In this document: positions 38,671 through 51,137 of the stretch, one piece after another | Layout: every line of letters begins with the position of its first letter | Position numbering within the stretch: the first letter of the stretch is position 1 | Assembly (NCBI GenBank): GCA_965116815.1 | Contig: OZ220722.1 | Span: 1,695,050 to 1,759,049, forward strand | DNA from: Candidatus Poribacteria bacterium | GTDB lineage: Bacteria > Poribacteria > WGA-4E > WGA-3G | Direction of reading: 5' to 3' | DNA length: 64,000 nt | Made by a program: the position numbers and the translations under genes | The notes under the pieces: model-generated | Told to the model about the DNA's origin: nothing | Seen by the model: only the letters and a program-made list of their open reading frames with translations | The model's database searches: none

Positions 38671-39689
38671 CTGGCTTCGTCTCCGAGGCGAATACGTGGG
38701 TCAAAGTAGGCATACAAAAGATCCACGATGAGATTGACGAACATAAAGACCGTTGCGACGAAAAGCACACCACCTTGTACGGCACGGACATCGCGCGCTT
38801 CAACGGCGGCGCGCAACCATGAACCGAGTCCGGGCCAGGAGAAAATATGTTCAGTTAGGATCGCTCCGCCCAATAGATAACCGAATTCCAAGCCGATAAT
38901 TGTCAAGACAGGCACCATACTGTTTTTCATTGCATGTTTGCCGACGACTTTCCATCGCGACAAACCTTTCGCATACGCTGTCATAATATACGGTTGATTT
39001 AGCACTTCGAGGAGACTGGAACGGGTCATCCGAGCGATGATTGCTAATGGGATAGTCCCCAATGTTACCGCAGGAAGAATGAGATGCGCGATGGCATTTC
39101 GGAAGGCAGCGAAGTTTCCCATGAGAAGCGTATCAATGAGATAGAAACCTGTGCGTGATTGGATGTCTAAATCCAATATTACATCAAGTCGTCCTGTGCT
39201 TGGTAGTATCGGTAAGAAATAAGAGAAAAGCAGAATAAGCATCAAGCCTAACCAGAAGATAGGCATAGAGATGCCAGCGAGGGATATGGACATTGAGAAA
39301 TAATCCAAAAATCTTCCGCGGGCGATCGCCGCAATAACGCCTGCCCCGATACCGAATACGATGGAAAATGCCATTGCAGCGAGGGTTAGTTCAGCCGTTG
39401 CCGGGAAATAGCGTTTGATTTCTTCAGTGACGGGTTGTTTTGTTTTGAACGAGCGTCCAAAGTCAAGATGTGAGACATCCCACAGGAATTTGGCGTATTG
39501 GTGATACAGGGGTTTATCAAGCCCCATCTCTTCTCGAAGTTCGATGAGTGCTTTTTCGGTCGCGCGCTCTCCCAAAATAGCGACGGCGGCATCGCCGGGG
39601 ATGAGGTGCACCATCAGGAAAACGAGAAGCGATACCGCCAAAAGGGATAAACCGATCGAAAGAAAGCGTTGGAGGAGATATGAGAGCAA
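38667..39689 (-). CDS. ABC transporter permease (DppB/OppB-like)
   Basis: The MLSYLLQRFLSIGLSLLAVSLLVFL... N-terminus is typical of DppB. EAA-like loop. Confidence 0.8.
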   Translation of the reverse strand: MLSYLLQRFLSIGLSLLAVSLLVFLMVHLIPGDAAVAILGERATEKALIELREEMGLDKPLYHQYAKFLWDVSHLDFGRSFKTKQPVTEEIKRYFPATAELTLAAMAFSIVFGIGAGVIAAIARGRFLDYFSMSISLAGISMPIFWLGLMLILLFSYFLPILPSTGRLDVILDLDIQSRTGFYLIDTLLMGNFAAFRNAIAHLILPAVTLGTIPLAIIARMTRSSLLEVLNQPYIMTAYAKGLSRWKVVGKHAMKNSMVPVLTIIGLEFGYLLGGAILTEHIFSWPGLGSWLRAAVEARDVRAVQGGVLFVATVFMFVNLIVDLLYAYFDPRIRLGDEAR

Positions 39690-39770
39690 GGGTTGAACCT
39701 TCCGTATCTTTTAACGATTATGTCTGAGCGGGGTTTCCGTTGTCAATTCTGAGCTGAAATCGTTAAAAAA

Positions 39771-40598
39771 TTAGAAAAATGGGTTGTGCAATTTCTCCTC
39801 ACCTACAGTGGTGGAGGGGCCGTGTCCGGGAAAGAGCCTGACAGCGTCTGGAAGTGAGAGTAGGTTGTCGCGAACGCTGTCGATTTCATCCTGATAAGAG
39901 ATGTTGGGACCCCCAACGGAACCGGCAAAAATGGCATCACCGACAAAGGCTACATCCTGTGCGATGAAACTACACCCACCAGGGGTGTGTCCGGGCGTAT
40001 TGACGACGTTTACCGTCAGTTCACCCACAGTGAGGGCATCGCCATGCGCAACCTCACGCAGTCTGTTTTCACTTCGCGGTTTCGGTTCGTTCCTATGGAT
40101 GTAAGTTTCGCATCCGGTGGCGGATTGGAGTTTGGGTAACCCGTCGGTATGGTCGCTATGCGCGTGCGTCAGAAGGATCGCAGCGGGATTCACATTGTGA
40201 GCATCCACTTGTTCCAAGACGCGGTCTGGATGCGCTGCGGTGTCGATAATTGCAGCGTCGTTGGTTGTTTTGCAAATCAAGAGATATGCATTGACGGGCC
40301 ATCCGCCCACAGGTGCGCTGATTGTGATAACCTCAAGATTTGCGTCGCTACTCTGCGGTGGCGGTTCAGGTTCCCACTGCTCTGTCGCGATGTCAAGCAG
40401 TTTAGTACCGTCCAAATTCAGTACTTCTGCGAGACGAAAAACTTGTGTTTCTGTCGGTTTTAAGGTATACTGTTCCATACGCGCAAGTTCTGCCTCTGTG
40501 ATACCAACAGCACTTGCAGTTTGGCTTTGAGAAAGGTCTTGCCCGCGTCGGGCTTTGCCAATGATGTCACCAAATTCATCTTCGAGTGCATAAGCCAT
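39771..40598 (-). CDS. MBL-fold metallo-hydrolase with N-terminal XRE-type HTH domain
   Basis: The HTH reads LSQSQTASAVGITEAELARME. The metallo-beta-lactamase motif is HAHSDHTDG. Confidence 0.7.
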   Translation of the reverse strand: MAYALEDEFGDIIGKARRGQDLSQSQTASAVGITEAELARMEQYTLKPTETQVFRLAEVLNLDGTKLLDIATEQWEPEPPPQSSDANLEVITISAPVGGWPVNAYLLICKTTNDAAIIDTAAHPDRVLEQVDAHNVNPAAILLTHAHSDHTDGLPKLQSATGCETYIHRNEPKPRSENRLREVAHGDALTVGELTVNVVNTPGHTPGGCSFIAQDVAFVGDAIFAGSVGGPNISYQDEIDSVRDNLLSLPDAVRLFPGHGPSTTVGEEKLHNPFF

Positions 40599-40654
40599 GG
40601 TGGTGTTCTCCTTAACTTTTTTACTTTACGGAACATTGTATCAAAAAATCAGGT

Positions 40655-41272
40655 ATGATGCAATTGAAAATAGGTCGCATTGAAGAAGGAGAGATTCTGA
40701 TGGGCATTCCAAAAAATGGATATGAACAAGCGACAATATCCCTCGCGCCGCTGGAAACTGATATGACGTTAGAAGATTTTCTTGAGAGTGATTTAGAGGG
40801 ATATGAATATATGAAAGGAAAGTTAATACCGATGGCACCACCGACAATGGAACACGGTGAAATCAGTATGAGCCTTAGTTTATTGTTAGGTGTTCATATT
40901 CGTGAACATGGGTTGGGGCGTTTGTATCCAGCAGATACAGACTTTAAATTGGGAGACCGATTGGTTAAACCGGATGTCGCGTTTGTTTCTACAGCGAGGT
41001 TGCCTGAGAACAGGAACCAGGCATCTCCTATAGCACCAGATCTTGCTGTTGAGGTAGTGTCACCATCAGATGTTTTTCGGCGTGTAATTGAAAAGGCGTT
41101 CGCCTATCTGGACGCAGGAACACAAATAGTCTGGGTGATTGAACCCGGATCAAAAACAGTAACCGTCTATCGTTCGGAAACAAATATCAAGTTGCTTACA
41201 CGCGAAGATACGCTCAGCGGTGAAGATGTTGTTGAAGGGTTTTCGTGTCAAGTCGTACAACTGTTTGAATAG
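40655..41272 (+). CDS. Uma2-family (DUF820) endonuclease, copy 1
   Basis: The conserved core PDLAVEVVSPSD...E(K) is typical of Uma2/PD-(D/E)XK. 60% identical to the next gene. Confidence 0.7.
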   Translation: MMQLKIGRIEEGEILMGIPKNGYEQATISLAPLETDMTLEDFLESDLEGYEYMKGKLIPMAPPTMEHGEISMSLSLLLGVHIREHGLGRLYPADTDFKLGDRLVKPDVAFVSTARLPENRNQASPIAPDLAVEVVSPSDVFRRVIEKAFAYLDAGTQIVWVIEPGSKTVTVYRSETNIKLLTREDTLSGEDVVEGFSCQVVQLFE

Positions 41273-41307
41273 ATACAGTTGAGATACGGCAAACTAATTA
41301 TGGAGGA

Positions 41308-41880
41308 ATGAACATGAGACAACAAGACGCTCATGGAGTCACCCAAGAAATACTTCCACCTCCCAAGAAGATGACGCTGGAAGAATTTCTTGAGAGTGAT
41401 TTAGAGGGATATGAATATGTGAAGGGAGAACTTATACCGATGCCTGCTGCATCATGGGAACATGGATTGATCAGCGCGAAGGTCTTTTTGCGTTTAGGGA
41501 CGTACGTTGAAGATAATCAACTCGGCAAAGTGGTTACCCCAGACACTGGCTTCCAGGTCGGTGAGCGCGTCCTGAAACCAGACGTTGCCTTCCTTTCAAC
41601 AGCGCATCTGCCTGATAATCCGAGCAGGGCATGTCCAGTGCCGCCGGACCTGGCCGTGGAGGTCGTTTCACCATCCGATGTTTTTCGGCGTGTGATTGAA
41701 AAAGCGTTCGCTTATCTTGAAGCTGGTACACAGATGGTCTGGATTGTCGAACCCACTTCACAAACGGTACGAGTGTATCGATCTGAAATGCCTATCAGGG
41801 TGTTAGGAATTAACGACACCCTCACGGGTGAAAATGTCGTTGAAGGGTTTTCATGTCAAGTGGCACAACTTTTTGAATAA
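41308..41880 (+). CDS. Uma2-family (DUF820) endonuclease, copy 2
   Basis: Paralogue of 40655..41272. The two share an identical C-terminal ...VVEGFSCQV(A/V)QLFE. Confidence 0.7.
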   Translation: MNMRQQDAHGVTQEILPPPKKMTLEEFLESDLEGYEYVKGELIPMPAASWEHGLISAKVFLRLGTYVEDNQLGKVVTPDTGFQVGERVLKPDVAFLSTAHLPDNPSRACPVPPDLAVEVVSPSDVFRRVIEKAFAYLEAGTQMVWIVEPTSQTVRVYRSEMPIRVLGINDTLTGENVVEGFSCQVAQLFE

Positions 41881-41889
41881 GGAGTTTTT

Positions 41890-42648
41890 ATGAAACTTGG
41901 TTTAGTTACATATAATATGGCAAAAGATTGGGATGTCCCCACGATCATTGAAAAATGCGTGGAGACAGGGTTCTCAGGCGTGGAATTGCGGACAACGCAT
42001 GCCCACGGCGTTGAGGTCGAACTTTCGGCAAGCGAACGGGCAGCAGTAAAACAACAATTCGCTGATTCTCCGATTGAGATTGCCGGTTTAGGTTCCGCAT
42101 TTGATTACCATGCCGTGGATCAGGCGGTCGTTCGTCAGAATATCGAAGGGACGAAGGTGTATTCTCAACTCGCAGCGGATGTTGGAGCACCCGGTGTGAA
42201 GGTACGTCCGAATGGACTCCCTGAAGAAGTACCCGTCGAAAAGACATTGGAGCAAATTGGATTGGCGTTACGTGAGTGTGGCGAATTCGCTGCGGATCTC
42301 GGCGTGCAGATTCGGCTGGAAGTCCACGGCGGTGGCACCTCTGAACTCCGACATATCCGAACAATTATTGACGTTGCTGATCACGAAAATGTTTATGTCT
42401 GCTGGAATTCCAATTTCGGTGAAGTAGAAAACGGTTCTATTCAAAAGAACTTTGATCTCGTGAAAGGCAGAATCGGCTTGGTGCATATCACCGAACTGCA
42501 TCGACGGGAGTATCCGTGGCGTGAGCTTTTTACACTCTTGAGAGATTCAGGGTATTCGGGGTACACCCTTGCAGAGATCGCCGGAAGTTCCGATCCAGAA
42601 CGCGTAATGAATTTCTATCGGGCACTGTGGGAAGAACTGTCAAGGTAA
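41890..42648 (+). CDS. Sugar-phosphate isomerase/epimerase (xylose-isomerase-like TIM barrel)
   Basis: MKLGLVTYNMAKDWD... with the Glu/His/Asp pattern of the AP-endonuclease-2/TIM family. Confidence 0.65.
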   Translation: MKLGLVTYNMAKDWDVPTIIEKCVETGFSGVELRTTHAHGVEVELSASERAAVKQQFADSPIEIAGLGSAFDYHAVDQAVVRQNIEGTKVYSQLAADVGAPGVKVRPNGLPEEVPVEKTLEQIGLALRECGEFAADLGVQIRLEVHGGGTSELRHIRTIIDVADHENVYVCWNSNFGEVENGSIQKNFDLVKGRIGLVHITELHRREYPWRELFTLLRDSGYSGYTLAEIAGSSDPERVMNFYRALWEELSR

Positions 42649-46109: not shown

Positions 46110-46119
46110 AGAGTCAAAC

Positions 46120-46370
46120 TAAAGTTTGGACAATCTTCTGTAGAATAGGCTGTTAGCCTGTTCCATCTTCCGTAGAATAGCCTGTTGGTCTCCTGTTCTG
46201 TCTTCCGTAGAATAAGTTGTCTCTTTGCTCCAGCGGAGCAATATTGCCTCACAGTGAGAGTAGCAGCCGATTGTTGGCAATCCTGCACTCCAGCGGAGTG
46301 CTATGTCTATAGAAAAAGACGTATGCGAACTACCGCACTCCAGCGGAGTGCTATGTCTATAAAAGGGACA
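46120..46370 (+). repeat. Two families of short direct repeats: 3 copies of TCTTC(C/T)GTAGAATA at ~35-bp spacing, then 2 perfect and 1 degenerate copy of palindromic GCACTCCAGCGGAGTGCTATGTCTATA
   Basis: 46130/46166/46201 share TCTTCYGTAGAATAR. 46285..46311 and 46335..46361 are identical 27-mers, each with an internal 7-bp inverted repeat (GCACTCC/GGAGTGC). A degenerate copy lies at ~46226. Confidence 0.6.
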
Positions 46371-46456
46371 ATTTGAGTTGATTTATGGTTGATGAATTCA
46401 ACAAAATATGATACACTTTTGGAAATTTATCAACATGGAGGTTTGAATATACAGAC

Positions 46457-48289
46457 ATGACGGAATCCCATAATCAGGAAGAACTCAATAAAGCACTTAA
46501 CATATACATACGTGCTATGTGTGATTTCATCTTCGAGTATCTGAAAAAGAAAGTACGAGGTGAAACTGTAGAAGATTTGATTAGAAAGGTAGTGAATCGC
46601 GAACCATTTGATCTGGAACCTAAGCATATTCTACAGATTTTTAGGCATCGAGAGAGCAGGGATTTTTTTAAAGATCGATTTGGTTACAATCCGCGGACTG
46701 GTCAGGACAAATATGACATTGAGAGTGTGACGGCTCTGATCGTAATGGGACGAAATAAAGTTCACCATGTAGGATCTGTGGATCTGGATTCCGAGTTCAC
46801 CCGAACGTGCCTGTTTCTTATCGCCGATGTACTAGGGGAAATCAATAGGCCAGATGCAAAGGAAGCGGTTGAAACCATTCGAGATCAGCTTTTCTCTGAT
46901 GAGTCTGAAGAACACCCGTTGGAAGCTGAGAATGCTGCTTACAAGAAACAGATCGCTGATATAATCAAGCAGCGTGATGCAGCAAAAGCAGAAAAAACTG
47001 AATTGGAAAAACAGGTCAAGACTACATCAGATCGGCTGGCAGAAGTCGAGGCAGAATGGATTGCTTGCGATGAACGTCTAGCAACTATATCTTTCCAGCT
47101 AGAAATGGCTGTAGCCGGAAAAACCGTCGCTGAGGAACGCTTATCAGGCATATCAAATCGATTAGAAGACGCGGAAGTAGAGAAGACCGAGTTGGAGAAA
47201 CGTCTCAAAACTATGTCAGATCGGTTAAAAGACGTAGAGAAAGAAAATGCTGCGTATCAGAAACGCGTGGAGACCATTTCAAATCAGTTAGAAAAAGCGA
47301 AGGCCGAGTTAGATGCTTTCAAGGAACGTCCTGCGCCATTAGAGCCAAAAGAACCTTTACGGCTAAATCCTAACACACCTGATTCTGTCACTTTTCATGG
47401 GACCATCTTTACGAAGCATTTGAACCAGTATTTATGTTATGGAGATGATATTTCCCAAGATTTCTGGCATTATTGGCAATCACAAGGACGCGAAGGTAAA
47501 CAGAAAATGCGGGATGCCGGGTGGAGTGTAGAGAAAGTAGACGGAGAGTGGGAAGTGATAGTTTCTCCAGAGGATTTTCAAGCATGGATAGCGAATGAAA
47601 TGACGGAATTGAGCGACTTACTTAATTCTTTGCAAAACAAAGAACCCTCAACGCAGCCTCCGCGTCCCTTCTATGGAAAACGCGAGGCGAACAATCTGGA
47701 CGACCGCAAGGAAATCGGGCGAAAGGTCGCTGAGTTGCGTATTAACTCCGCCGGTTCAAAGCCGATGAGTTGGCGTCGCATCCGCGAGAAGTTGCGGATC
47801 AAGAATGATGAGTTCCACAAGGGTATTCGTCTCGAGGATCATTTCCGTGAGTCCGTTGTCGAACGCATTGAGTCGTTTGAGGGCGGATGGGAATATAGGG
47901 GCAAGCTCAAATCTCTGTTAGGATTTGAGCCCGTCGGGGAATTGAAGTCTCGGATAGAGGCGTGCAAGCCGAAACCGGTCCCAAAGGAAGAGGCAGAAGA
48001 GGTTGAAGAACCTCAGGGCACGGTTCTACCTACAGGTAAAGAAATGGAACAACCTGCCCTTGAATTTCTCAGCGATGGAAGAGAATATCCTCGAATCGAG
48101 ATCATAAATGTGCTTACCCAGCATTTTTCTCTTACCAAAAATCAGAGGGAACAGTTAAGTCGAAGTGGCAGGGTGGAACTTTACCTAAGAAACAAGGAAT
48201 TGGTAGAACGAACCAGAACAGGCTACTACAGAATAACCGATCTCGGCCTTGAGATCTTGAAGCGAAACTCAGGTGACGTTCCATTTTAA
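46457..48289 (+). CDS. HEPN-domain (DUF4145/Swt1-like, Rx4HH) protein with central coiled coil and C-terminal Mrr_N-like winged helix
   Basis: N-terminal ...IVMGRNKVHHVGSVD (R-x4-H motif). aa 150-290 have heptad repeats (TELEKQVKTTSDRLAEVE... duplicated). The C-terminus (YPRIEIINVLTQHFSLTKNQREQLSRSGRVELYLRNKELVERTRTGYYRITDLGLEIL) matches Mrr N-terminal wHTH. Confidence 0.55.
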   Translation: MTESHNQEELNKALNIYIRAMCDFIFEYLKKKVRGETVEDLIRKVVNREPFDLEPKHILQIFRHRESRDFFKDRFGYNPRTGQDKYDIESVTALIVMGRNKVHHVGSVDLDSEFTRTCLFLIADVLGEINRPDAKEAVETIRDQLFSDESEEHPLEAENAAYKKQIADIIKQRDAAKAEKTELEKQVKTTSDRLAEVEAEWIACDERLATISFQLEMAVAGKTVAEERLSGISNRLEDAEVEKTELEKRLKTMSDRLKDVEKENAAYQKRVETISNQLEKAKAELDAFKERPAPLEPKEPLRLNPNTPDSVTFHGTIFTKHLNQYLCYGDDISQDFWHYWQSQGREGKQKMRDAGWSVEKVDGEWEVIVSPEDFQAWIANEMTELSDLLNSLQNKEPSTQPPRPFYGKREANNLDDRKEIGRKVAELRINSAGSKPMSWRRIREKLRIKNDEFHKGIRLEDHFRESVVERIESFEGGWEYRGKLKSLLGFEPVGELKSRIEACKPKPVPKEEAEEVEEPQGTVLPTGKEMEQPALEFLSDGREYPRIEIINVLTQHFSLTKNQREQLSRSGRVELYLRNKELVERTRTGYYRITDLGLEILKRNSGDVPF

Positions 48290-48382
48290 GTTTCAATGGT
48301 GGCATCAGTTGGTATGCTGTAGAACTATAGGGTTGTACTCTTAAAGCGATTGAGTTTCCCGGACTTCGCTGGAGGCGAAACT

Positions 48383-48718
48383 ATGTTTATGCAGAAACTC
48401 AAAGCCAGCCTTCGATTTCTCGGAATTCTGTTTGTTAGAATTTTGGCGGGAGTCGTAATAGGGCACTTGTGGGTTATCGCTGTGGCACTTGTTTTTCATC
48501 ACACAGGGGAGAATATAGTATCTCAACACGCGGAAATAGGTCCCCATCACGGTCTTTATGACTATTTTGATTCAAGATACGACATAGGTCCTATTTTTCG
48601 TATTGTCGCTTGGGTCGCATGTATAGGAAACTTGGGGTGTATGGCACTTGGATTTCTCTGGGGTATTTCTCAAGGTAGGTTGGGTTTACGGAGATGGTTG
48701 AAAAAGCAGCGGGCTTAA
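48383..48718 (+). CDS. Small membrane protein (3 TM), hypothetical
   Basis: GGAGG RBS 8 nt before the ATG at 48383. Hydrophobic throughout. Confidence 0.45.
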   Translation: MFMQKLKASLRFLGILFVRILAGVVIGHLWVIAVALVFHHTGENIVSQHAEIGPHHGLYDYFDSRYDIGPIFRIVAWVACIGNLGCMALGFLWGISQGRLGLRRWLKKQRA

Positions 48719-48746: not shown

Positions 48747-49136
48747 ATGGATCAGACTGAATTTTATCAAGCGAAATTAAACTACGAAACAGATTCTTGG
48801 GATCTCTATGAAGCACTCAATAACGGGGAACCTATCGTTGTTATAGATGCCCGTTCTCCAGAGGCGTATGCCCTTGAACACATACCAACATCAATAAATA
48901 TCCCGCATCGAACAATGTCTGAGGTGACTACACGTGAACTTGATAAATCAAAATTATATGTGACCTACTGTGATGGTATCGGCTGTAATGCTTCCACAAA
49001 AGGTGCCTTGAATATGGCAAAGTTGGGATTTCAGGTTAAGGAACTTATGGGTGGCTTAGATTGGTGGAAACGTGATAGCTATGAAACGAAAGGTAAACAA
49101 GGCGTGCCGGGGACTGAGGTTGTGTGTGGGTGCTAA
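48747..49136 (+). CDS. Rhodanese-like domain protein
   Basis: PIVVIDARSPEAYALEHIP..INIP and the cysteine loop YCDGIGCNAS. Confidence 0.7.
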   Translation: MDQTEFYQAKLNYETDSWDLYEALNNGEPIVVIDARSPEAYALEHIPTSINIPHRTMSEVTTRELDKSKLYVTYCDGIGCNASTKGALNMAKLGFQVKELMGGLDWWKRDSYETKGKQGVPGTEVVCGC

Positions 49137-49198
49137 ATATGATCGTAAAAAATTTAATTTGCAATTGCAAACCGGATAGTGTATAATTAAATTACTAT

Positions 49199-49271
49199 TC
49201 CCCCATAGCTCAGTCGGTAGAGCAGATGGCTGTTAACCATCGTGTCGGCGGTTCGAGTCCGTCTGGGGGAG
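49199..49271 (+). tRNA. tRNA-Asn (anticodon GTT)
   Basis: Acceptor stem TCCCCCA/TGGGGGA. D-arm GCTCAGTCGGTAGAGC. Anticodon loop CTGTTAA. T-arm GGCGGTTCGAGTCCGTC. No encoded CCA. Confidence 0.9.
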
Positions 49272-49372
49272 TTTTGAATTTTGCTGGCGGGCTTTGGTGG
49301 TCAAGGTTCGCCAGCAAATCTTTTTAATCTGTTCTTGTTCAAATTCACCCTACTTCTCCACTGGAGGTCAAT

Positions 49373-50197: not shown

Positions 50198-50205
50198 ATC
50201 GAATA

Positions 50206-51137
50206 TGATGAAAGTCATGATTCCACCAATTAAGTGTCAAGGGATTAAAAGCAAACTTGTTCCTTTCATAAAGCGAGCTGTGGATTGGTCTTTTGAAGGT
50301 AGATGGATTGAACCCTTTATGGGTTCGGGGGTTGTTGGTTTCAATATCATACCCCGCGATGCTGTTTTTGCAGATAGCAATCCACATTTGATTAACTTCT
50401 ATAATGCCATCGCGAGTGGAAAGATTGATGGTTTGAAAGTGAGAAGTTTCCTTGAACAACACGGTGAGATGTTATCAAGACGTGGACAAGATTATTATTA
50501 TGAAGTTCGAGAGCGGTTTAATAAGACGCATGAACCTTTGGATTTCCTTTTTTTAAATCGCAGCTGCTTCAATGGCATGATTCGGTTCAATCGTAAGGGA
50601 GACTTTAATGTCCCTTTCGGGCACAAACCGCAGCGATTTTCCAAAGGATACATCACAAAGATTGTGAACCAAATTGACTACGTTTACGTTATGTCAAGGC
50701 ATTCTAATTGGTCATTTATCTGCCAAGATTATAGAGAAACACTCAAAGAGATTTCTGAAAACGATTTTGTCTACTGTGATCCACCTTACGCTGGACGGCA
50801 CGTTGATTATTTTGATAGTTGGGACGAAGAAAATGAACGATCCCTATTTAAGATGCTGCGTCAATCTCCTTGCAAATTCATCTTATCCACTTGGCATAGT
50901 AATCAGTACAGGAAAAATGTTTTTCTTGAGACGCTCTGGTCAGAATTTCACGTGTTAACCAAGGAACACTTTTATCACGTCGGTGCGAAAGAGAAAAATA
51001 GAAAACCGATGCTTGAGGCATTGGTCATGAATTTCACACCTAAACACTCGCATGAGGAACCGACTGGGCGAGCTGAACAACTTCTGCTTTTTGAAAAGTT
51101 GGCAGCATATCAAAGAAGTGAAAGTTTGGTGTCGTGA
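50206..51137 (+). CDS. Dam-family (D12 class) DNA N6-adenine methyltransferase
   Basis: Motif I EPFMGSGVVGFN and motif IV VYCDPPY. The ATG at 50206 is 9 nt after the upstream stop. Confidence 0.75.

What the first reader, a model, noticed from the sequence alone, without database searches (positions are those of the whole stretch)
46457..48718. HEPN–coiled-coil–Mrr_N single-chain protein with a downstream small membrane protein: candidate defence/abortive-infection module
The 610-aa protein combines an N-terminal HEPN RNase-type motif (RNKVHH), a duplicated coiled-coil segment, and a C-terminal Mrr_N-type winged helix. The winged helix is a DNA- or modified-DNA-sensing domain found in restriction systems. 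Twenty-seven nt downstream of an intervening gap, a 3-TM small protein is encoded with a strong RBS. HEPN + wHTH sensor + small membrane effector resembles abortive-infection logic. The locus also sits two genes from a tRNA and a Dam methylase. This exact architecture is not a named system to my knowledge.
Basis: partly seen in the sequence, partly recalled or inferred. Interest (0 to 1): 0.55.

Follow-up and report, generated by a model that had tools for sequence, protein, structure and literature searches.

The report
Mosaic HEPN–coiled-coil–winged-helix accessory gene
A Poribacteria chromosome carries an optional, fast-diversifying gene that fuses a predicted RNA-cutting HEPN head to DNA-binding tail domains through a coiled coil, and the window's copy is a recent recombinant of two alleles; it looks like a new single-protein immune or conflict gene, while the small membrane gene next to it is not its partner.

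Summary
The 610-aa ORF (46457-48289, +) is real. Its parts are largely as described: an R-x4-H motif (R99...H104) in a Swt1-type HEPN head, an internally duplicated coiled coil, and a C-terminal Mrr_N winged helix. HEPN is supported only through the family, not by the query alone. Two further uncharacterised modules, X and Y, lie between the coiled coil and Mrr_N.

Comparative genomics changes the picture. All named homologues are Candidatus Poribacteria. Most copies sit in one chromosomal slot between GH129 and rhodanese. Flanking genes there are 92-97% identical, but this gene's head averages 52%. Five related genomes have an empty slot, so the gene is accessory.

The window's copy is a clean recombinant. 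Its promoter-side spacer, head and first coiled-coil repeat are 97% identical to one genome. Its tail is 99.4% identical to another. Both values exceed backbone identity, and the crossover lies in the coiled coil. The catalytic R and H stay essentially invariant.

The small membrane ORF belongs to the backbone next to rhodanese. It occurs without the HEPN gene, and the HEPN gene occurs without it, so the two-gene module is not supported.

A defence or conflict role is the best inference, but it is unproven.

The parts
46110..46456 (+). Upstream spacer that travels with the head allele. It contains direct repeats at 46133-46226 (3 copies, ~32-nt period) and 46285-46364 (2 x 30 nt, each with the hairpin GCACTCC-AGC-GGAGTGC).
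   Evidence: Repeats. The spacer is 96% identical to L020 but largely absent or unalignable in L001. Any promoter or operator role is inference only; the promoter scan was no better than shuffles.
46457..48289 (+). HEPN-coiled-coil-X-Y-Mrr_N gene, 610 aa.
   Evidence: ORF. 195 homologues. An exact copy is in public data (P0001, 5.85-Mb contig).
46457..46876 (+). N-terminal Swt1-type HEPN head (aa 1-140), all-helical.
   Evidence: 24/35 family N-domains hit PF18731. AF2 model mean pLDDT 90.7, seven helices. The A1 profile finds DUF499/HmaC-type HEPN_Swt1 proteins at E ~1e-42. GC is 0.40 here against 0.47-0.53 in the backbone.
46751..46768 (+). R-x4-H catalytic signature RNKVHH (R99, N100, H104).
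   Evidence: Across 238 aligned head-family proteins: R in 237, H in 238, N in 205. R99 and H104 are invariant in A1.
46877..47344 (+). Coiled coil (aa ~141-296) with an internal duplication: aa 163-220 (46943-47116) and aa 226-283 (47132-47305).
   Evidence: Coiled-coil, SMC and tropomyosin profiles hit only this stretch. Duplication score 121 against 34.8 +/- 6.4 for shuffles.
46932..47201 (+). Recombination crossover zone between the L020-like head segment and the L001-like tail segment.
   Evidence: 90-nt-bin identities switch here. At protein level the switch is at aa ~180-240.
47369..47632 (+). Module X (aa ~305-392). An alpha+beta domain of unknown family; the conserved motif includes MRDAGWSVEKVDGxWEV.
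   Evidence: Present in 82 of 120 homologues. The homologous module in the P0008 model folds as three strands, two helices, two strands, one helix, with block-mean pLDDT 85-93 over the folded core. No Pfam hit; the whole-model PDB searches gave nothing assignable to X.
47678..47992 (+). Module Y (aa ~408-512). An all-helical domain of unknown family; a DNA-binding HTH role is a guess.
   Evidence: Present in 52 of 120 homologues. Its position relative to X differs between alleles: X-Y-C in only 2, Y-X-C in 20, Y alone in 28. The model shows six helices, with block-mean pLDDT mostly 87-94 (72 at the N-terminal edge). No Pfam hit.
48041..48262 (+). Mrr_N winged helix (aa 529-602).
   Evidence: PF14338 E = 3.2e-10, above the gathering score. 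In the homologue model the best Foldseek matches are winged-helix DNA binders of ~75-90 aligned columns; the output gives no query coordinates, so their assignment to this domain is an inference. tblastn hits 'restriction endonuclease' genes on Nostoc and Trichormus plasmids over aa 524-604.
48384..48718 (+). Small membrane ORF (111 aa from ATG 48384; RBS GGAGG at 48371-48375). Judged a backbone gene adjacent to rhodanese, NOT part of the HEPN module.
   Evidence: 57 homologues; all the named ones are Poribacteria. It is found 8-29 nt upstream of rhodanese in five genomes that lack the HEPN gene. It is absent from at least seven HEPN-bearing loci.

Best explanation
The gene encodes a stand-alone, accessory sensor-effector protein of the conflict or defence type.

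Shown:
- It is an optional insert of about 2.27 kb between GH129 and the small-ORF/rhodanese pair of a conserved Poribacteria backbone.
- It is far more variable than its flanks.
- Its modules (head, X, Y, Mrr_N, and in other alleles DUF4268 or an XRE-type HTH) assort independently.
- The window's allele is a recent recombinant whose junction lies in the duplicated coiled coil.
- The head's R-x4-H residues are conserved throughout the family.

Inferred mechanism:
- The coiled coil dimerises the protein. This would bring two HEPN heads together into the composite R-x4-H RNase site that HEPN enzymes need (established knowledge of HEPN RNases).
- The C-terminal Mrr_N winged helix, possibly helped by X and Y, binds DNA or a modified or foreign nucleic acid.
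- That binding licenses RNA cleavage, which gives growth arrest or abortive infection.
- Head/tail cassette exchange through the repetitive coiled-coil joint generates new sensor-effector combinations under diversifying selection.

In most genomes the insert also carries small companion genes: c19 (a PF05168 HEPN protein) or c20, plus one to three c1 genes. The window's copy lacks them, so it is a reduced version.
For: Domains:
- Mrr_N passes its Pfam cutoff.
- 24/35 family heads hit HEPN_Swt1.
- R99 is kept in 237/238 and H104 in 238/238 head-family proteins, despite ~50% overall identity.
- Coiled coil and its duplication.

Accessory status: five related genomes have the same backbone and no trace of the gene.

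Hypervariability:
- Backbone aa identity to the window is 92-97%, against 34-57% for this gene outside the closest relative L001 (83%).
- Over all locus pairs the backbone averages 0.94, the head 0.52, X 0.67, Y 0.76 and Mrr_N 0.69.
- Spearman head-vs-backbone is 0.03 and head-vs-Mrr_N is -0.04.

Recombination:
- Window 46457-46990 is 97.0% identical to L020, whose GH129 is 82.7% identical, and 66% identical to L001.
- Window 47185-48289 is 99.4% identical to L001, whose GH129 is 91.7% identical, and 69% identical to L020.

Combinatorial fusions typical of conflict systems:
- The same head is fused to DUF4268, HTH_31, UDG, LRR and DUF499 tails.
- A head-bearing DUF499 protein matches PADLOC HmaC at E = 9e-245.
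- The 2013 HEPN survey describes this Swt1/Abi2-clade head fused to DUF499 in R-M operons (PMC3710099).

Slot cargo and other contexts:
- c19 hits defence candidate PDC-M28A at E = 1e-9.
- L010's copy sits next to a Gp49/HTH_37 toxin-antitoxin pair and an SNase.
- L020's copy sits next to an IS200/IS605 transposase.

Composition: GC dips at the head.
Against: - There is no experimental evidence, and the query's head and tail have no PADLOC match.
- The query's own head does not reach any HEPN profile.
- Foldseek did not retrieve HEPN structures for a confident model, so HEPN rests on transitive sequence homology and the motif.
- The immediate flanks are metabolic or housekeeping: GH129, rhodanese, tRNA-Asn and PhyH.
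- A paralogue sits between an NFACT/RqcH-like gene and GroEL, so this is not a classical defence island.
- No phage or plasmid copies were found.
- The empty-site genomes are a somewhat more divergent clade (GH129 72-75% identical). Lineage-specific gain is therefore as possible as repeated loss.
- The functions of X and Y, the ligand of Mrr_N and the RNA target are all unknown.
- Dimerisation through the coiled coil was not modelled.
Confidence: 0.55

Rival explanations
1. One reading: a two-gene abortive-infection module. The HEPN-wHTH protein senses infection, and the downstream small membrane protein is the effector or partner.
For: The two genes are adjacent on the same strand, 94 nt apart. 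There is a good RBS and no terminator-like site between them beyond chance. The same adjacency is seen in L001.
Against: The small ORF occurs without the HEPN gene in L021-L025, always 8-29 nt before rhodanese. At least seven in-slot loci have the HEPN gene but no small ORF. Where both exist, other genes usually intervene, or rhodanese does in L014. The small ORF has no family or defence match.
Confidence: 0.04
2. It is the toxin of a selfish, addiction-type (toxin-antitoxin-like) cassette. Its cognate partners would be the small genes that follow it in most genomes (c19 or c20, and c1). The window's copy, lacking them, would be a decaying or domesticated remnant rather than an immune gene.
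For: c1 (87-118 aa, 1-3 copies) and c19/c20 follow the gene at short or overlapping spacing in 12 of 17 in-slot loci. They are absent from all five empty sites. c19 is a PF05168 HEPN protein of the kind found in HEPN/MNT toxin-antitoxin pairs. L010's copy neighbours a Gp49/HTH_37 pair.
Against: The window's ORF is intact with the catalytic residues kept. Its tail is 99.4% identical to another genome's, so it has been exchanged recently rather than decaying. A lone toxin without an antitoxin should be lethal or inactivated. c1 has no recognisable antitoxin, MNT or other family match. TA and defence roles are not mutually exclusive.
Confidence: 0.15
3. It is a housekeeping or regulatory protein, such as a DNA-tethered RNase or a nucleoid- or translation-associated factor. 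Its variability would reflect weak constraint or host-specific adaptation, not immunity.
For: Flanks at both recurrent slots are housekeeping or metabolic: GH129/rhodanese/tRNA, and NFACT/RqcH-like/GroEL. The gene is present in most genomes of this clade at the same position. Eukaryotic Swt1 itself acts in RNA surveillance (PMC3710099).
Against: The gene is absent from five related genomes with the same backbone. Segments are more similar between genomes than the backbone is, which points to recent horizontal exchange. Modules assort independently and tails are replaced wholesale. The active site is strictly conserved, so constraint is not relaxed.
Confidence: 0.15
4. It is a member of a known multi-gene system, either a CoCoNuT CnuE-type effector or an Hma/DUF499-type R-M accessory, whose partners lie elsewhere.
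For: CnuE proteins combine a wHTH, a weak coiled coil and HEPN (PMC11090510). The head subtype also heads HmaC-like ATPases.
Against: The domain order is reversed relative to CnuE. No helicase, McrB, McrC, DUF499 ATPase or SNF2 gene lies within about 5 kb in any of the 20 loci examined. The only MTase nearby pairs with an EcoRV-type REase in other genomes.
Confidence: 0.05

Closest known systems
Bacterial Swt1/Abi2-clade HEPN proteins fused to DUF499 AAA+ ATPase (Ava_2192 type; PADLOC HmaC of the Hma system)
   Same: Same subtype of N-terminal HEPN head. The A1 profile matches P0178, P0220 and P0253 at E of 1e-32 to 1e-42. Those proteins hit PF18731 and DUF499, and P0178 hits HmaC at E = 9e-245. 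The R-x4-H motif is conserved. The architecture is described as R-M-associated and catalytically active in PMC3710099.
   Different: The query has no ATPase. Its tail is instead coiled coil, X, Y and Mrr_N. There are no helicase or methylase partner genes, and it appears to be a single-gene unit.
CoCoNuT CnuE effectors (elongated wHTH, weak coiled coil, HEPN) of type II/III-A CoCoNuT systems
   Same: Same three kinds of parts in one polypeptide: a winged helix, a coiled coil and a HEPN RNase with R-x4-H. These are also predicted to be RNA-targeting immune effectors (PMC11090510).
   Different: The order is opposite: wHTH is N-terminal and HEPN C-terminal in CnuE. CnuE works with a UPF1-like CnuH helicase and McrBC-like CnuB/CnuC, none of which is near this gene. 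The HEPN family is different, and the winged helix here is Mrr_N. Sequence homology to CnuE was not tested.
Mrr type IV restriction endonuclease
   Same: Homologous N-terminal winged-helix DNA-binding domain. PF14338 passes its cutoff. tblastn hits annotated restriction endonucleases on cyanobacterial plasmids over aa 524-604.
   Different: The domain is C-terminal here and is not joined to a PD-(D/E)xK Mrr catalytic domain. The predicted nuclease is an RNase head.
Single-protein HEPN abortive-infection factors (AbiD/AbiF/Abi2 family and similar)
   Same: A stand-alone HEPN protein from the same broad Abi2/Swt1 clade (PMC3710099). The proposed logic is trigger-dependent RNA cleavage.
   Different: There is no Abi_2 profile match. 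The long coiled coil and three C-terminal modules are absent from classical Abi2 proteins. No phage-resistance phenotype is known.

Membership tests
HEPN superfamily, Swt1-like family (Pfam PF18731) | R-x4-6-H catalytic motif | tested here: met
   R99-NKVH-H104. R is kept in 237/238 and H in 238/238 head-family proteins.
HEPN superfamily, Swt1-like family (Pfam PF18731) | Profile match of the query itself above Pfam's threshold | tested here: not met
   The query's N-domain alone gave no HEPN family at E <= 10. The only hit was Ribonuc_2-5A at E = 0.033 over aa 83-106.
HEPN superfamily, Swt1-like family (Pfam PF18731) | Homology to bona fide family members (transitive) | tested here: met
   24 of 35 aligned N-domains hit PF18731, best E = 3.7e-10. 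The A1 profile retrieves PF18731+DUF499 proteins at E ~1e-42.
HEPN superfamily, Swt1-like family (Pfam PF18731) | All-alpha HEPN fold recognisable by structure comparison | tested here: inconclusive
   The AF2 model has pLDDT 90.7 and seven helices. Foldseek against PDB and BFVD gave no match at E <= 0.001, only generic helical bundles with TM ~0.2.
HEPN superfamily, Swt1-like family (Pfam PF18731) | RNase activity and dimeric composite active site | not testable with these tools
   This needs biochemistry.
Mrr_N winged helix (Pfam PF14338) | Profile match above the gathering score | tested here: met
   E = 3.2e-10, 40.4 bits against a 29.5-bit cutoff, aa 529-602.
Mrr_N winged helix (Pfam PF14338) | Winged-helix fold | tested here: met
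   The homologous domain in the P0008 model (C domains 51-99% identical among alleles) shows helices followed by a beta hairpin. The top Foldseek matches are PadR, MarR, AspA and IclR winged helices, with probability 0.94-1.0 but E of only 0.05-0.3. The modelled protein is a homologue, not the query, and the Foldseek output does not report which part of the model was aligned.
Mrr type IV restriction endonuclease | PD-(D/E)xK Mrr catalytic domain joined to Mrr_N | tested here: not met
   There is no Mrr_cat or other PD-(D/E)xK hit in the query. Some alleles carry DUF4268, but the query does not.
CoCoNuT system (CnuE effector) | N-terminal elongated wHTH with C-terminal HEPN | tested here: not met
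   The order is reversed: HEPN is N-terminal and the winged helix C-terminal.
CoCoNuT system (CnuE effector) | Operon with CnuH UPF1-like helicase and McrB/McrC-like CnuB/CnuC | tested here: not met
   The neighbours are GH129, FGE-sulfatase, the small ORF, rhodanese, tRNA, PhyH, Dam and a TPP enzyme. The same holds in the related loci.
Hma system (HmaC, DUF499 ATPase with helicase and methylase) | DUF499 AAA+ ATPase domain and partner helicase and methylase genes | tested here: not met
   The query has no DUF499 or HmaC hit, and there is no helicase nearby. Only the head domain is shared.
HEPN/MNT type II toxin-antitoxin | Adjacent minimal nucleotidyltransferase antitoxin and a PF05168-type HEPN | tested here: not met
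   There is no MNT gene in the window. The query's head is Swt1-type, not PF05168. A PF05168 protein (c19) sits next to the gene in L002, L004 and L006 only.
   The small ORF occurs without the HEPN gene in 5 genomes. The HEPN gene occurs without the small ORF in at least 7 loci.
Any PADLOC-DB v2 defence or candidate family | Profile match outside the coiled coil | tested here: not met
   The whole protein hits only JetC, LmuB, PbeC and ZorA coiled-coil regions at aa ~125-307. The head alone and the tail alone give 0 families.

The most novel reading that the evidence does not exclude
This is a previously undescribed family of stand-alone bacterial immune sensors, so far seen in Poribacteria. 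A conserved HEPN RNase head and interchangeable nucleic-acid-sensing tails are re-assorted between strains by recombination through a repetitive coiled-coil joint. That would be a cassette-shuffling way of generating new sensor-effector specificities at a fixed chromosomal hot spot.
Probability: 0.3. Interest if true: 0.7.

Novelty: new variant of a known kind. Interest (0 to 1): 0.52.

Why it matters
HEPN RNases fused to sensor domains are a recurring theme in prokaryotic immunity, but most predicted architectures remain untested. This one has three useful properties.

1. It appears to be a single-gene unit small enough to test heterologously.
2. It comes with a natural allelic series: dozens of head/tail combinations at one locus, plus empty sites. 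That series could be used to map what determines specificity.
3. It shows recombination at a coiled-coil linker directly at the DNA level, as the apparent means of re-pairing effector and sensor.

It would also add to the still sparse picture of how sponge-associated and marine Poribacteria, which are uncultivated and known to be rich in defence genes, cope with mobile elements.

If the gene turned out to be housekeeping, a hypervariable yet active-site-conserved RNase at a fixed locus would still need explaining.

Tried and rejected
- Foldseek of the confident head model against PDB and BFVD gave no significant match, so there is no structural confirmation of HEPN.
- Profile searches of the PDB with the head and tail alignments gave nothing.
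- Foldseek of the Y-X-Mrr_N model gave only weak winged-helix matches and nothing assignable to X or Y.
- Alignment A3 was unusable. Separate fragments were piled on top of each other by MAFFT.
- In alignment A4, the X-padded rows were placed correctly, but the X-to-Mrr_N rows were mis-threaded. The structure tool rejected the padded rows and the job was not counted.
- Because of this, I modelled the collinear homologue P0008 (Y-X-Mrr_N) rather than the query's own tail.
- The first genome scan with the head alignment failed for lack of a conserved stretch.
- The promoter and terminator scan was no better than shuffles around the gene.
- The listing of cluster members returned no names for the wider head family, so its taxonomy outside Poribacteria is unknown.
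- I suspected an HNH nuclease next to the L009 copy from its Cys/His pattern. Pfam gave no hit, so I dropped the claim.
- dN/dS was not computed. Head alleles are too divergent (about 50% aa identity) for synonymous sites to be informative, and recombination violates the model.
- I considered and rejected a polymorphic-toxin reading. There is no secretion or trafficking domain, and the nuclease is N-terminal.
Full report
**1. Observation**

The ORF 46457-48289 (+) encodes 610 aa. Pfam places Mrr_N (PF14338) at aa 529-602 with E = 3.2e-10, above the gathering score. Residues ~133-296 attract only coiled-coil, SMC and tropomyosin-type profiles in Pfam, NCBIfam and PADLOC. The two halves of that stretch, aa 163-220 and 226-283, are an internal duplication: alignment score 121 against 34.8 +/- 6.4 for shuffles.

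The motif RNKVHH sits at aa 99-104. The query's own N-terminus does not reach any HEPN profile; the only hit is Ribonuc_2-5A at E = 0.033 over the motif. In a non-redundant alignment of 35 family N-domains (A1), however, 24 hit PF18731 HEPN_Swt1, with best E = 3.7e-10. An AF2 model of the head is confident (pLDDT 90.7) and all-helical. Foldseek found no significant PDB or viral match, so the HEPN call rests on transitive sequence homology plus the motif.

The small downstream ORF most plausibly starts at ATG 48384, with GGAGG eight nt upstream. That gives 111 aa, the length called in L001. It has two hydrophobic stretches.

**2. Family and architecture**

A database search found 195 homologues, and every one that carries a source name is Candidatus Poribacteria. 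A pattern-limited scan of GTDB species genomes returned 14 loci, all Poribacteria.

The head and coiled coil are present in nearly all 120 listed homologues, and Mrr_N in 87. Between the coiled coil and Mrr_N lie two further conserved modules. X covers query aa ~305-392 and Y covers ~408-512. Their presence and order differ between alleles: X-Mrr_N in 56, Y only in 28, Y-X-Mrr_N in 20, and the query's own X-Y-Mrr_N in just 2. Other alleles carry DUF4268 or an XRE-type HTH_31 instead.

I could not build a valid deep alignment for the query's own X-Y-Mrr_N order. I therefore modelled the collinear allele P0008. It has mean pLDDT 86.3 and three folded domains separated by disordered linkers. Y is six helices. 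X is three strands, two helices, two strands and a helix. The C-terminus is a winged helix. Foldseek's best matches are PadR, MarR, AspA and IclR winged helices at high probability but weak E (0.05-0.3), and nothing could be assigned to X or Y. On plasmids, only the Mrr_N stretch matches annotated restriction endonucleases of Nostoc and Trichormus. No phage record matches.

**3. The wider head family**

An exhaustive profile search with A1 over 1.84 billion representative proteins found 676 proteins at E <= 1e-3 and 162 at E <= 1e-30. Of 133 new representatives, 117 carry the head without X, Y or Mrr_N. Sampled tails include DUF499 AAA+ ATPase, UDG, LRR repeats and several unknowns.

One DUF499 member, P0178, matches PADLOC HmaC at E = 9e-245. 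This is the HEPN+DUF499 architecture that the 2013 HEPN survey placed in R-M operons and judged catalytically active (PMC3710099).

Across 238 aligned head-family proteins, R99 is kept in 237, H104 in 238, N100 in 205 and D109 in 228. The active site is therefore under strong constraint.

**4. Genomic context: a variable slot in a conserved backbone**

In 17 of 20 loci carrying a homologue, the gene lies directly downstream of GH129 and upstream of rhodanese, tRNA, PhyH, (EcoRV REase), Dam and a TPP enzyme. Relative to the window, the AP_endonuc_2, rhodanese, PhyH and TPP-enzyme proteins are 92-97% identical and GH129 is 78-93%. The HEPN-CC gene is 83% identical in L001 and only 34-57% elsewhere.

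Over all locus pairs the mean identities are: backbone 0.94, head 0.52, X 0.67, Y 0.76, Mrr_N 0.69. Head identity is uncorrelated with the backbone (Spearman rho 0.03) and with Mrr_N (rho -0.04). GC falls to 0.40 over the head, against 0.47-0.53 in the backbone.

Five further genomes (L021-L025), found through the small ORF, have the same backbone but no HEPN-CC gene. There, GH129's stop lies 23-117 nt from the small ORF, and tblastn finds no remnant. The gene is thus an accessory insert of about 2.27 kb. Three copies lie elsewhere:
- L010 sits beside a Gp49/HTH_37 toxin-antitoxin pair and an SNase.
- L019, like the paralogue P0121 (L026), sits between an NFACT/RqcH-like gene and GroEL.
- L009 sits beside unannotated genes.

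P0121 and P0096 share a 5.55-Mb contig, so a genome can hold two paralogues.

**5. The window's allele is a recombinant**

Against its closest relative L001, backbone DNA identity is about 0.93. Across 46441-47034 it is 0.57-0.67, and across 47185-48234 it is 0.98-1.00.

A third genome, L020 (P0004, a Tara Oceans scaffold in the same slot), supplies the complementary match. Query aa 1-180 are 93-96% identical to P0004 and 46-76% to P0002. Query aa 241-610 are 96-100% identical to P0002 and 40-80% to P0004.

At the DNA level:
- The head (46457-46990) is 97.0% identical to L020 and 66.3% to L001.
- The upstream spacer (46110-46456) is 96.3% identical to L020.
- The tail (47185-48289) is 99.4% identical to L001 and 69.2% to L020.
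- GH129 is only 82.7% (L020) and 91.7% (L001) identical.

Each half is therefore closer to a different genome than the adjacent backbone is. That indicates recent horizontal exchange of gene segments. The crossover falls between 46932 and 47201, inside the duplicated coiled coil. A second case of discordance is L003 against L007: Mrr_N 99%, head 48%.

**6. The small membrane ORF is not a partner**

Its family has 57 members, the named ones are Poribacteria, and there is no domain match. It occurs without the HEPN gene in L021-L025, always 8-29 nt upstream of rhodanese. It is missing from at least seven in-slot loci that have the HEPN gene. Only in the window and L001 does it directly follow the HEPN gene. 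Elsewhere c19/c20/c1 genes intervene, or rhodanese does in L014. It behaves as a backbone gene.

The genes that do track the HEPN-CC gene are c1 (87-118 aa, 1-3 copies, no family match) and c19 or c20. They occur in 12 of 17 in-slot loci, at short or overlapping spacing, and in none of the empty sites. c19 is a PF05168 HEPN protein (E = 2e-6) that hits PADLOC candidate PDC-M28A at E = 1e-9. The window lacks all of them, so its insert is a reduced form.

**7. Mechanism**

Shown: domain composition, active-site conservation, accessory status, hypervariability, independent assortment of modules, and recombination at the coiled coil.

Inferred from established HEPN biology (HEPN RNases act as dimers with a composite R-x4-6-H site) and from the role of Mrr_N as the DNA-binding domain of Mrr:
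- the coiled coil dimerises the protein;
- the tail modules bind a nucleic-acid cue;
- binding licenses RNA cleavage, with growth arrest or abortive infection as the outcome.

I put this at 0.55.

**8. Comparison with known systems**

The head belongs to the Swt1/Abi2-clade HEPN domains and is shared with HmaC-like ATPases, but the query lacks the ATPase and its partners. By composition, the closest described analogue is CoCoNuT CnuE: wHTH, weak coiled coil, then HEPN (PMC11090510). CnuE has the opposite order and depends on a helicase plus McrBC, which are absent here. The query is not an Mrr endonuclease because it has no PD-(D/E)xK domain. No PADLOC model matches outside the coiled coil. 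The searched literature holds no description of this architecture or of HEPN genes in Poribacteria. Sponge-symbiont genomes are, however, reported to be enriched in defence genes (titles and abstracts of PMC5649159 and PMC5099237).

**9. Verdict**

The more interesting result is evolutionary: an optional, active-site-conserved HEPN-winged-helix gene at a fixed hot spot, whose alleles are re-assorted head-to-tail through a coiled-coil joint.

I rate it a new variant of a known kind (HEPN sensor-effector fusions), with interest about 0.5. Function remains untested.

Noticed in passing
window 50205-51137 (Dam MTase); L004 10573-11433, L025 6885-7745 (EcoRV-type REase): The Dam-family MTase (PADLOC MTase_II, E = 4e-127) is an orphan in the window. 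In L004, L008, L011 and L025 an Endonuc-EcoRV gene sits directly upstream of it, and L013 has a truncated copy. L002, L021 and L024 lack the MTase altogether. The PhyH-to-TPP-enzyme gap is thus a second variable slot, holding an R-M pair in various states of decay.
   Followed up: partly
L002 7940-8948; L004 7997-9004; also L005-L008, L011, L012, L014, L015, L017, L018: Companion cargo follows the HEPN-CC gene in most genomes. It comprises c19 (147 aa, PF05168 HEPN, PADLOC PDC-M28A E = 1e-9) or c20, plus 1-3 paralogous c1 genes (87-118 aa, starting 'MACxxLKQKI...', no family match). It is absent from the window and from all empty sites. Its function and its relation to the HEPN-CC protein are unknown.
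   Followed up: partly
L026 7001-8470; L019 8001-8882: There is a second recurrent chromosomal slot for a paralogue with the same head and coiled coil but a different tail. It lies between an NFACT/RqcH-like ribosome-quality-control gene and GroEL, followed by a 242-aa ORF with no match. P0121 here and P0096 at the other slot lie on the same 5.55-Mb contig.
   Followed up: partly
window 46133-46226 and 46285-46364: The upstream spacer holds three ~32-nt-period direct repeats (ATCTTCYGTAGAATAG...) and two 30-nt repeats, each with the hairpin GCACTCC-AGC-GGAGTGC. The whole spacer is 96% identical to L020 and travels with the head allele. It is missing from L001. It could be an operator or REP-like element; this was not tested.
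   Followed up: partly
window ~39000-41900 and the equivalent stretch of L001-L008, L011-L018, L020-L025: Uma2-family (PF05685) putative endonuclease genes occur in 1-4 tandem or interspersed copies upstream of AP_endonuc_2 and GH129, and the number differs between genomes. The FGE-sulfatase gene between AP_endonuc_2 and GH129 is present only in the window and L001, and is replaced by a Uma2 copy in several others.
   Followed up: no
L020 7974-8450: An IS200/IS605-type Y1 transposase gene lies about 570 nt downstream of the HEPN-CC gene in the Tara scaffold that carries the window-like head allele.
   Followed up: no
window 49198-49318: tRNA-Asn (GTT) is followed at once by a strong terminator-like hairpin (49280-49318, 18 pairs, then a T run). 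No comparable terminator lies between the HEPN gene, the small ORF and rhodanese, so these could be co-transcribed.
   Followed up: no
window 48747-49136: The 129-aa rhodanese ends in ...VVCGC and gives weak matches to rhodanese-related (seleno)protein families in NCBIfam (for example rhodanese_LYCAU E = 1.6e-7, SelU-like E = 2e-9, all far below cutoffs). Its constant pairing with the small membrane ORF suggests a membrane-associated sulfur or selenium-transfer pair.
   Followed up: no
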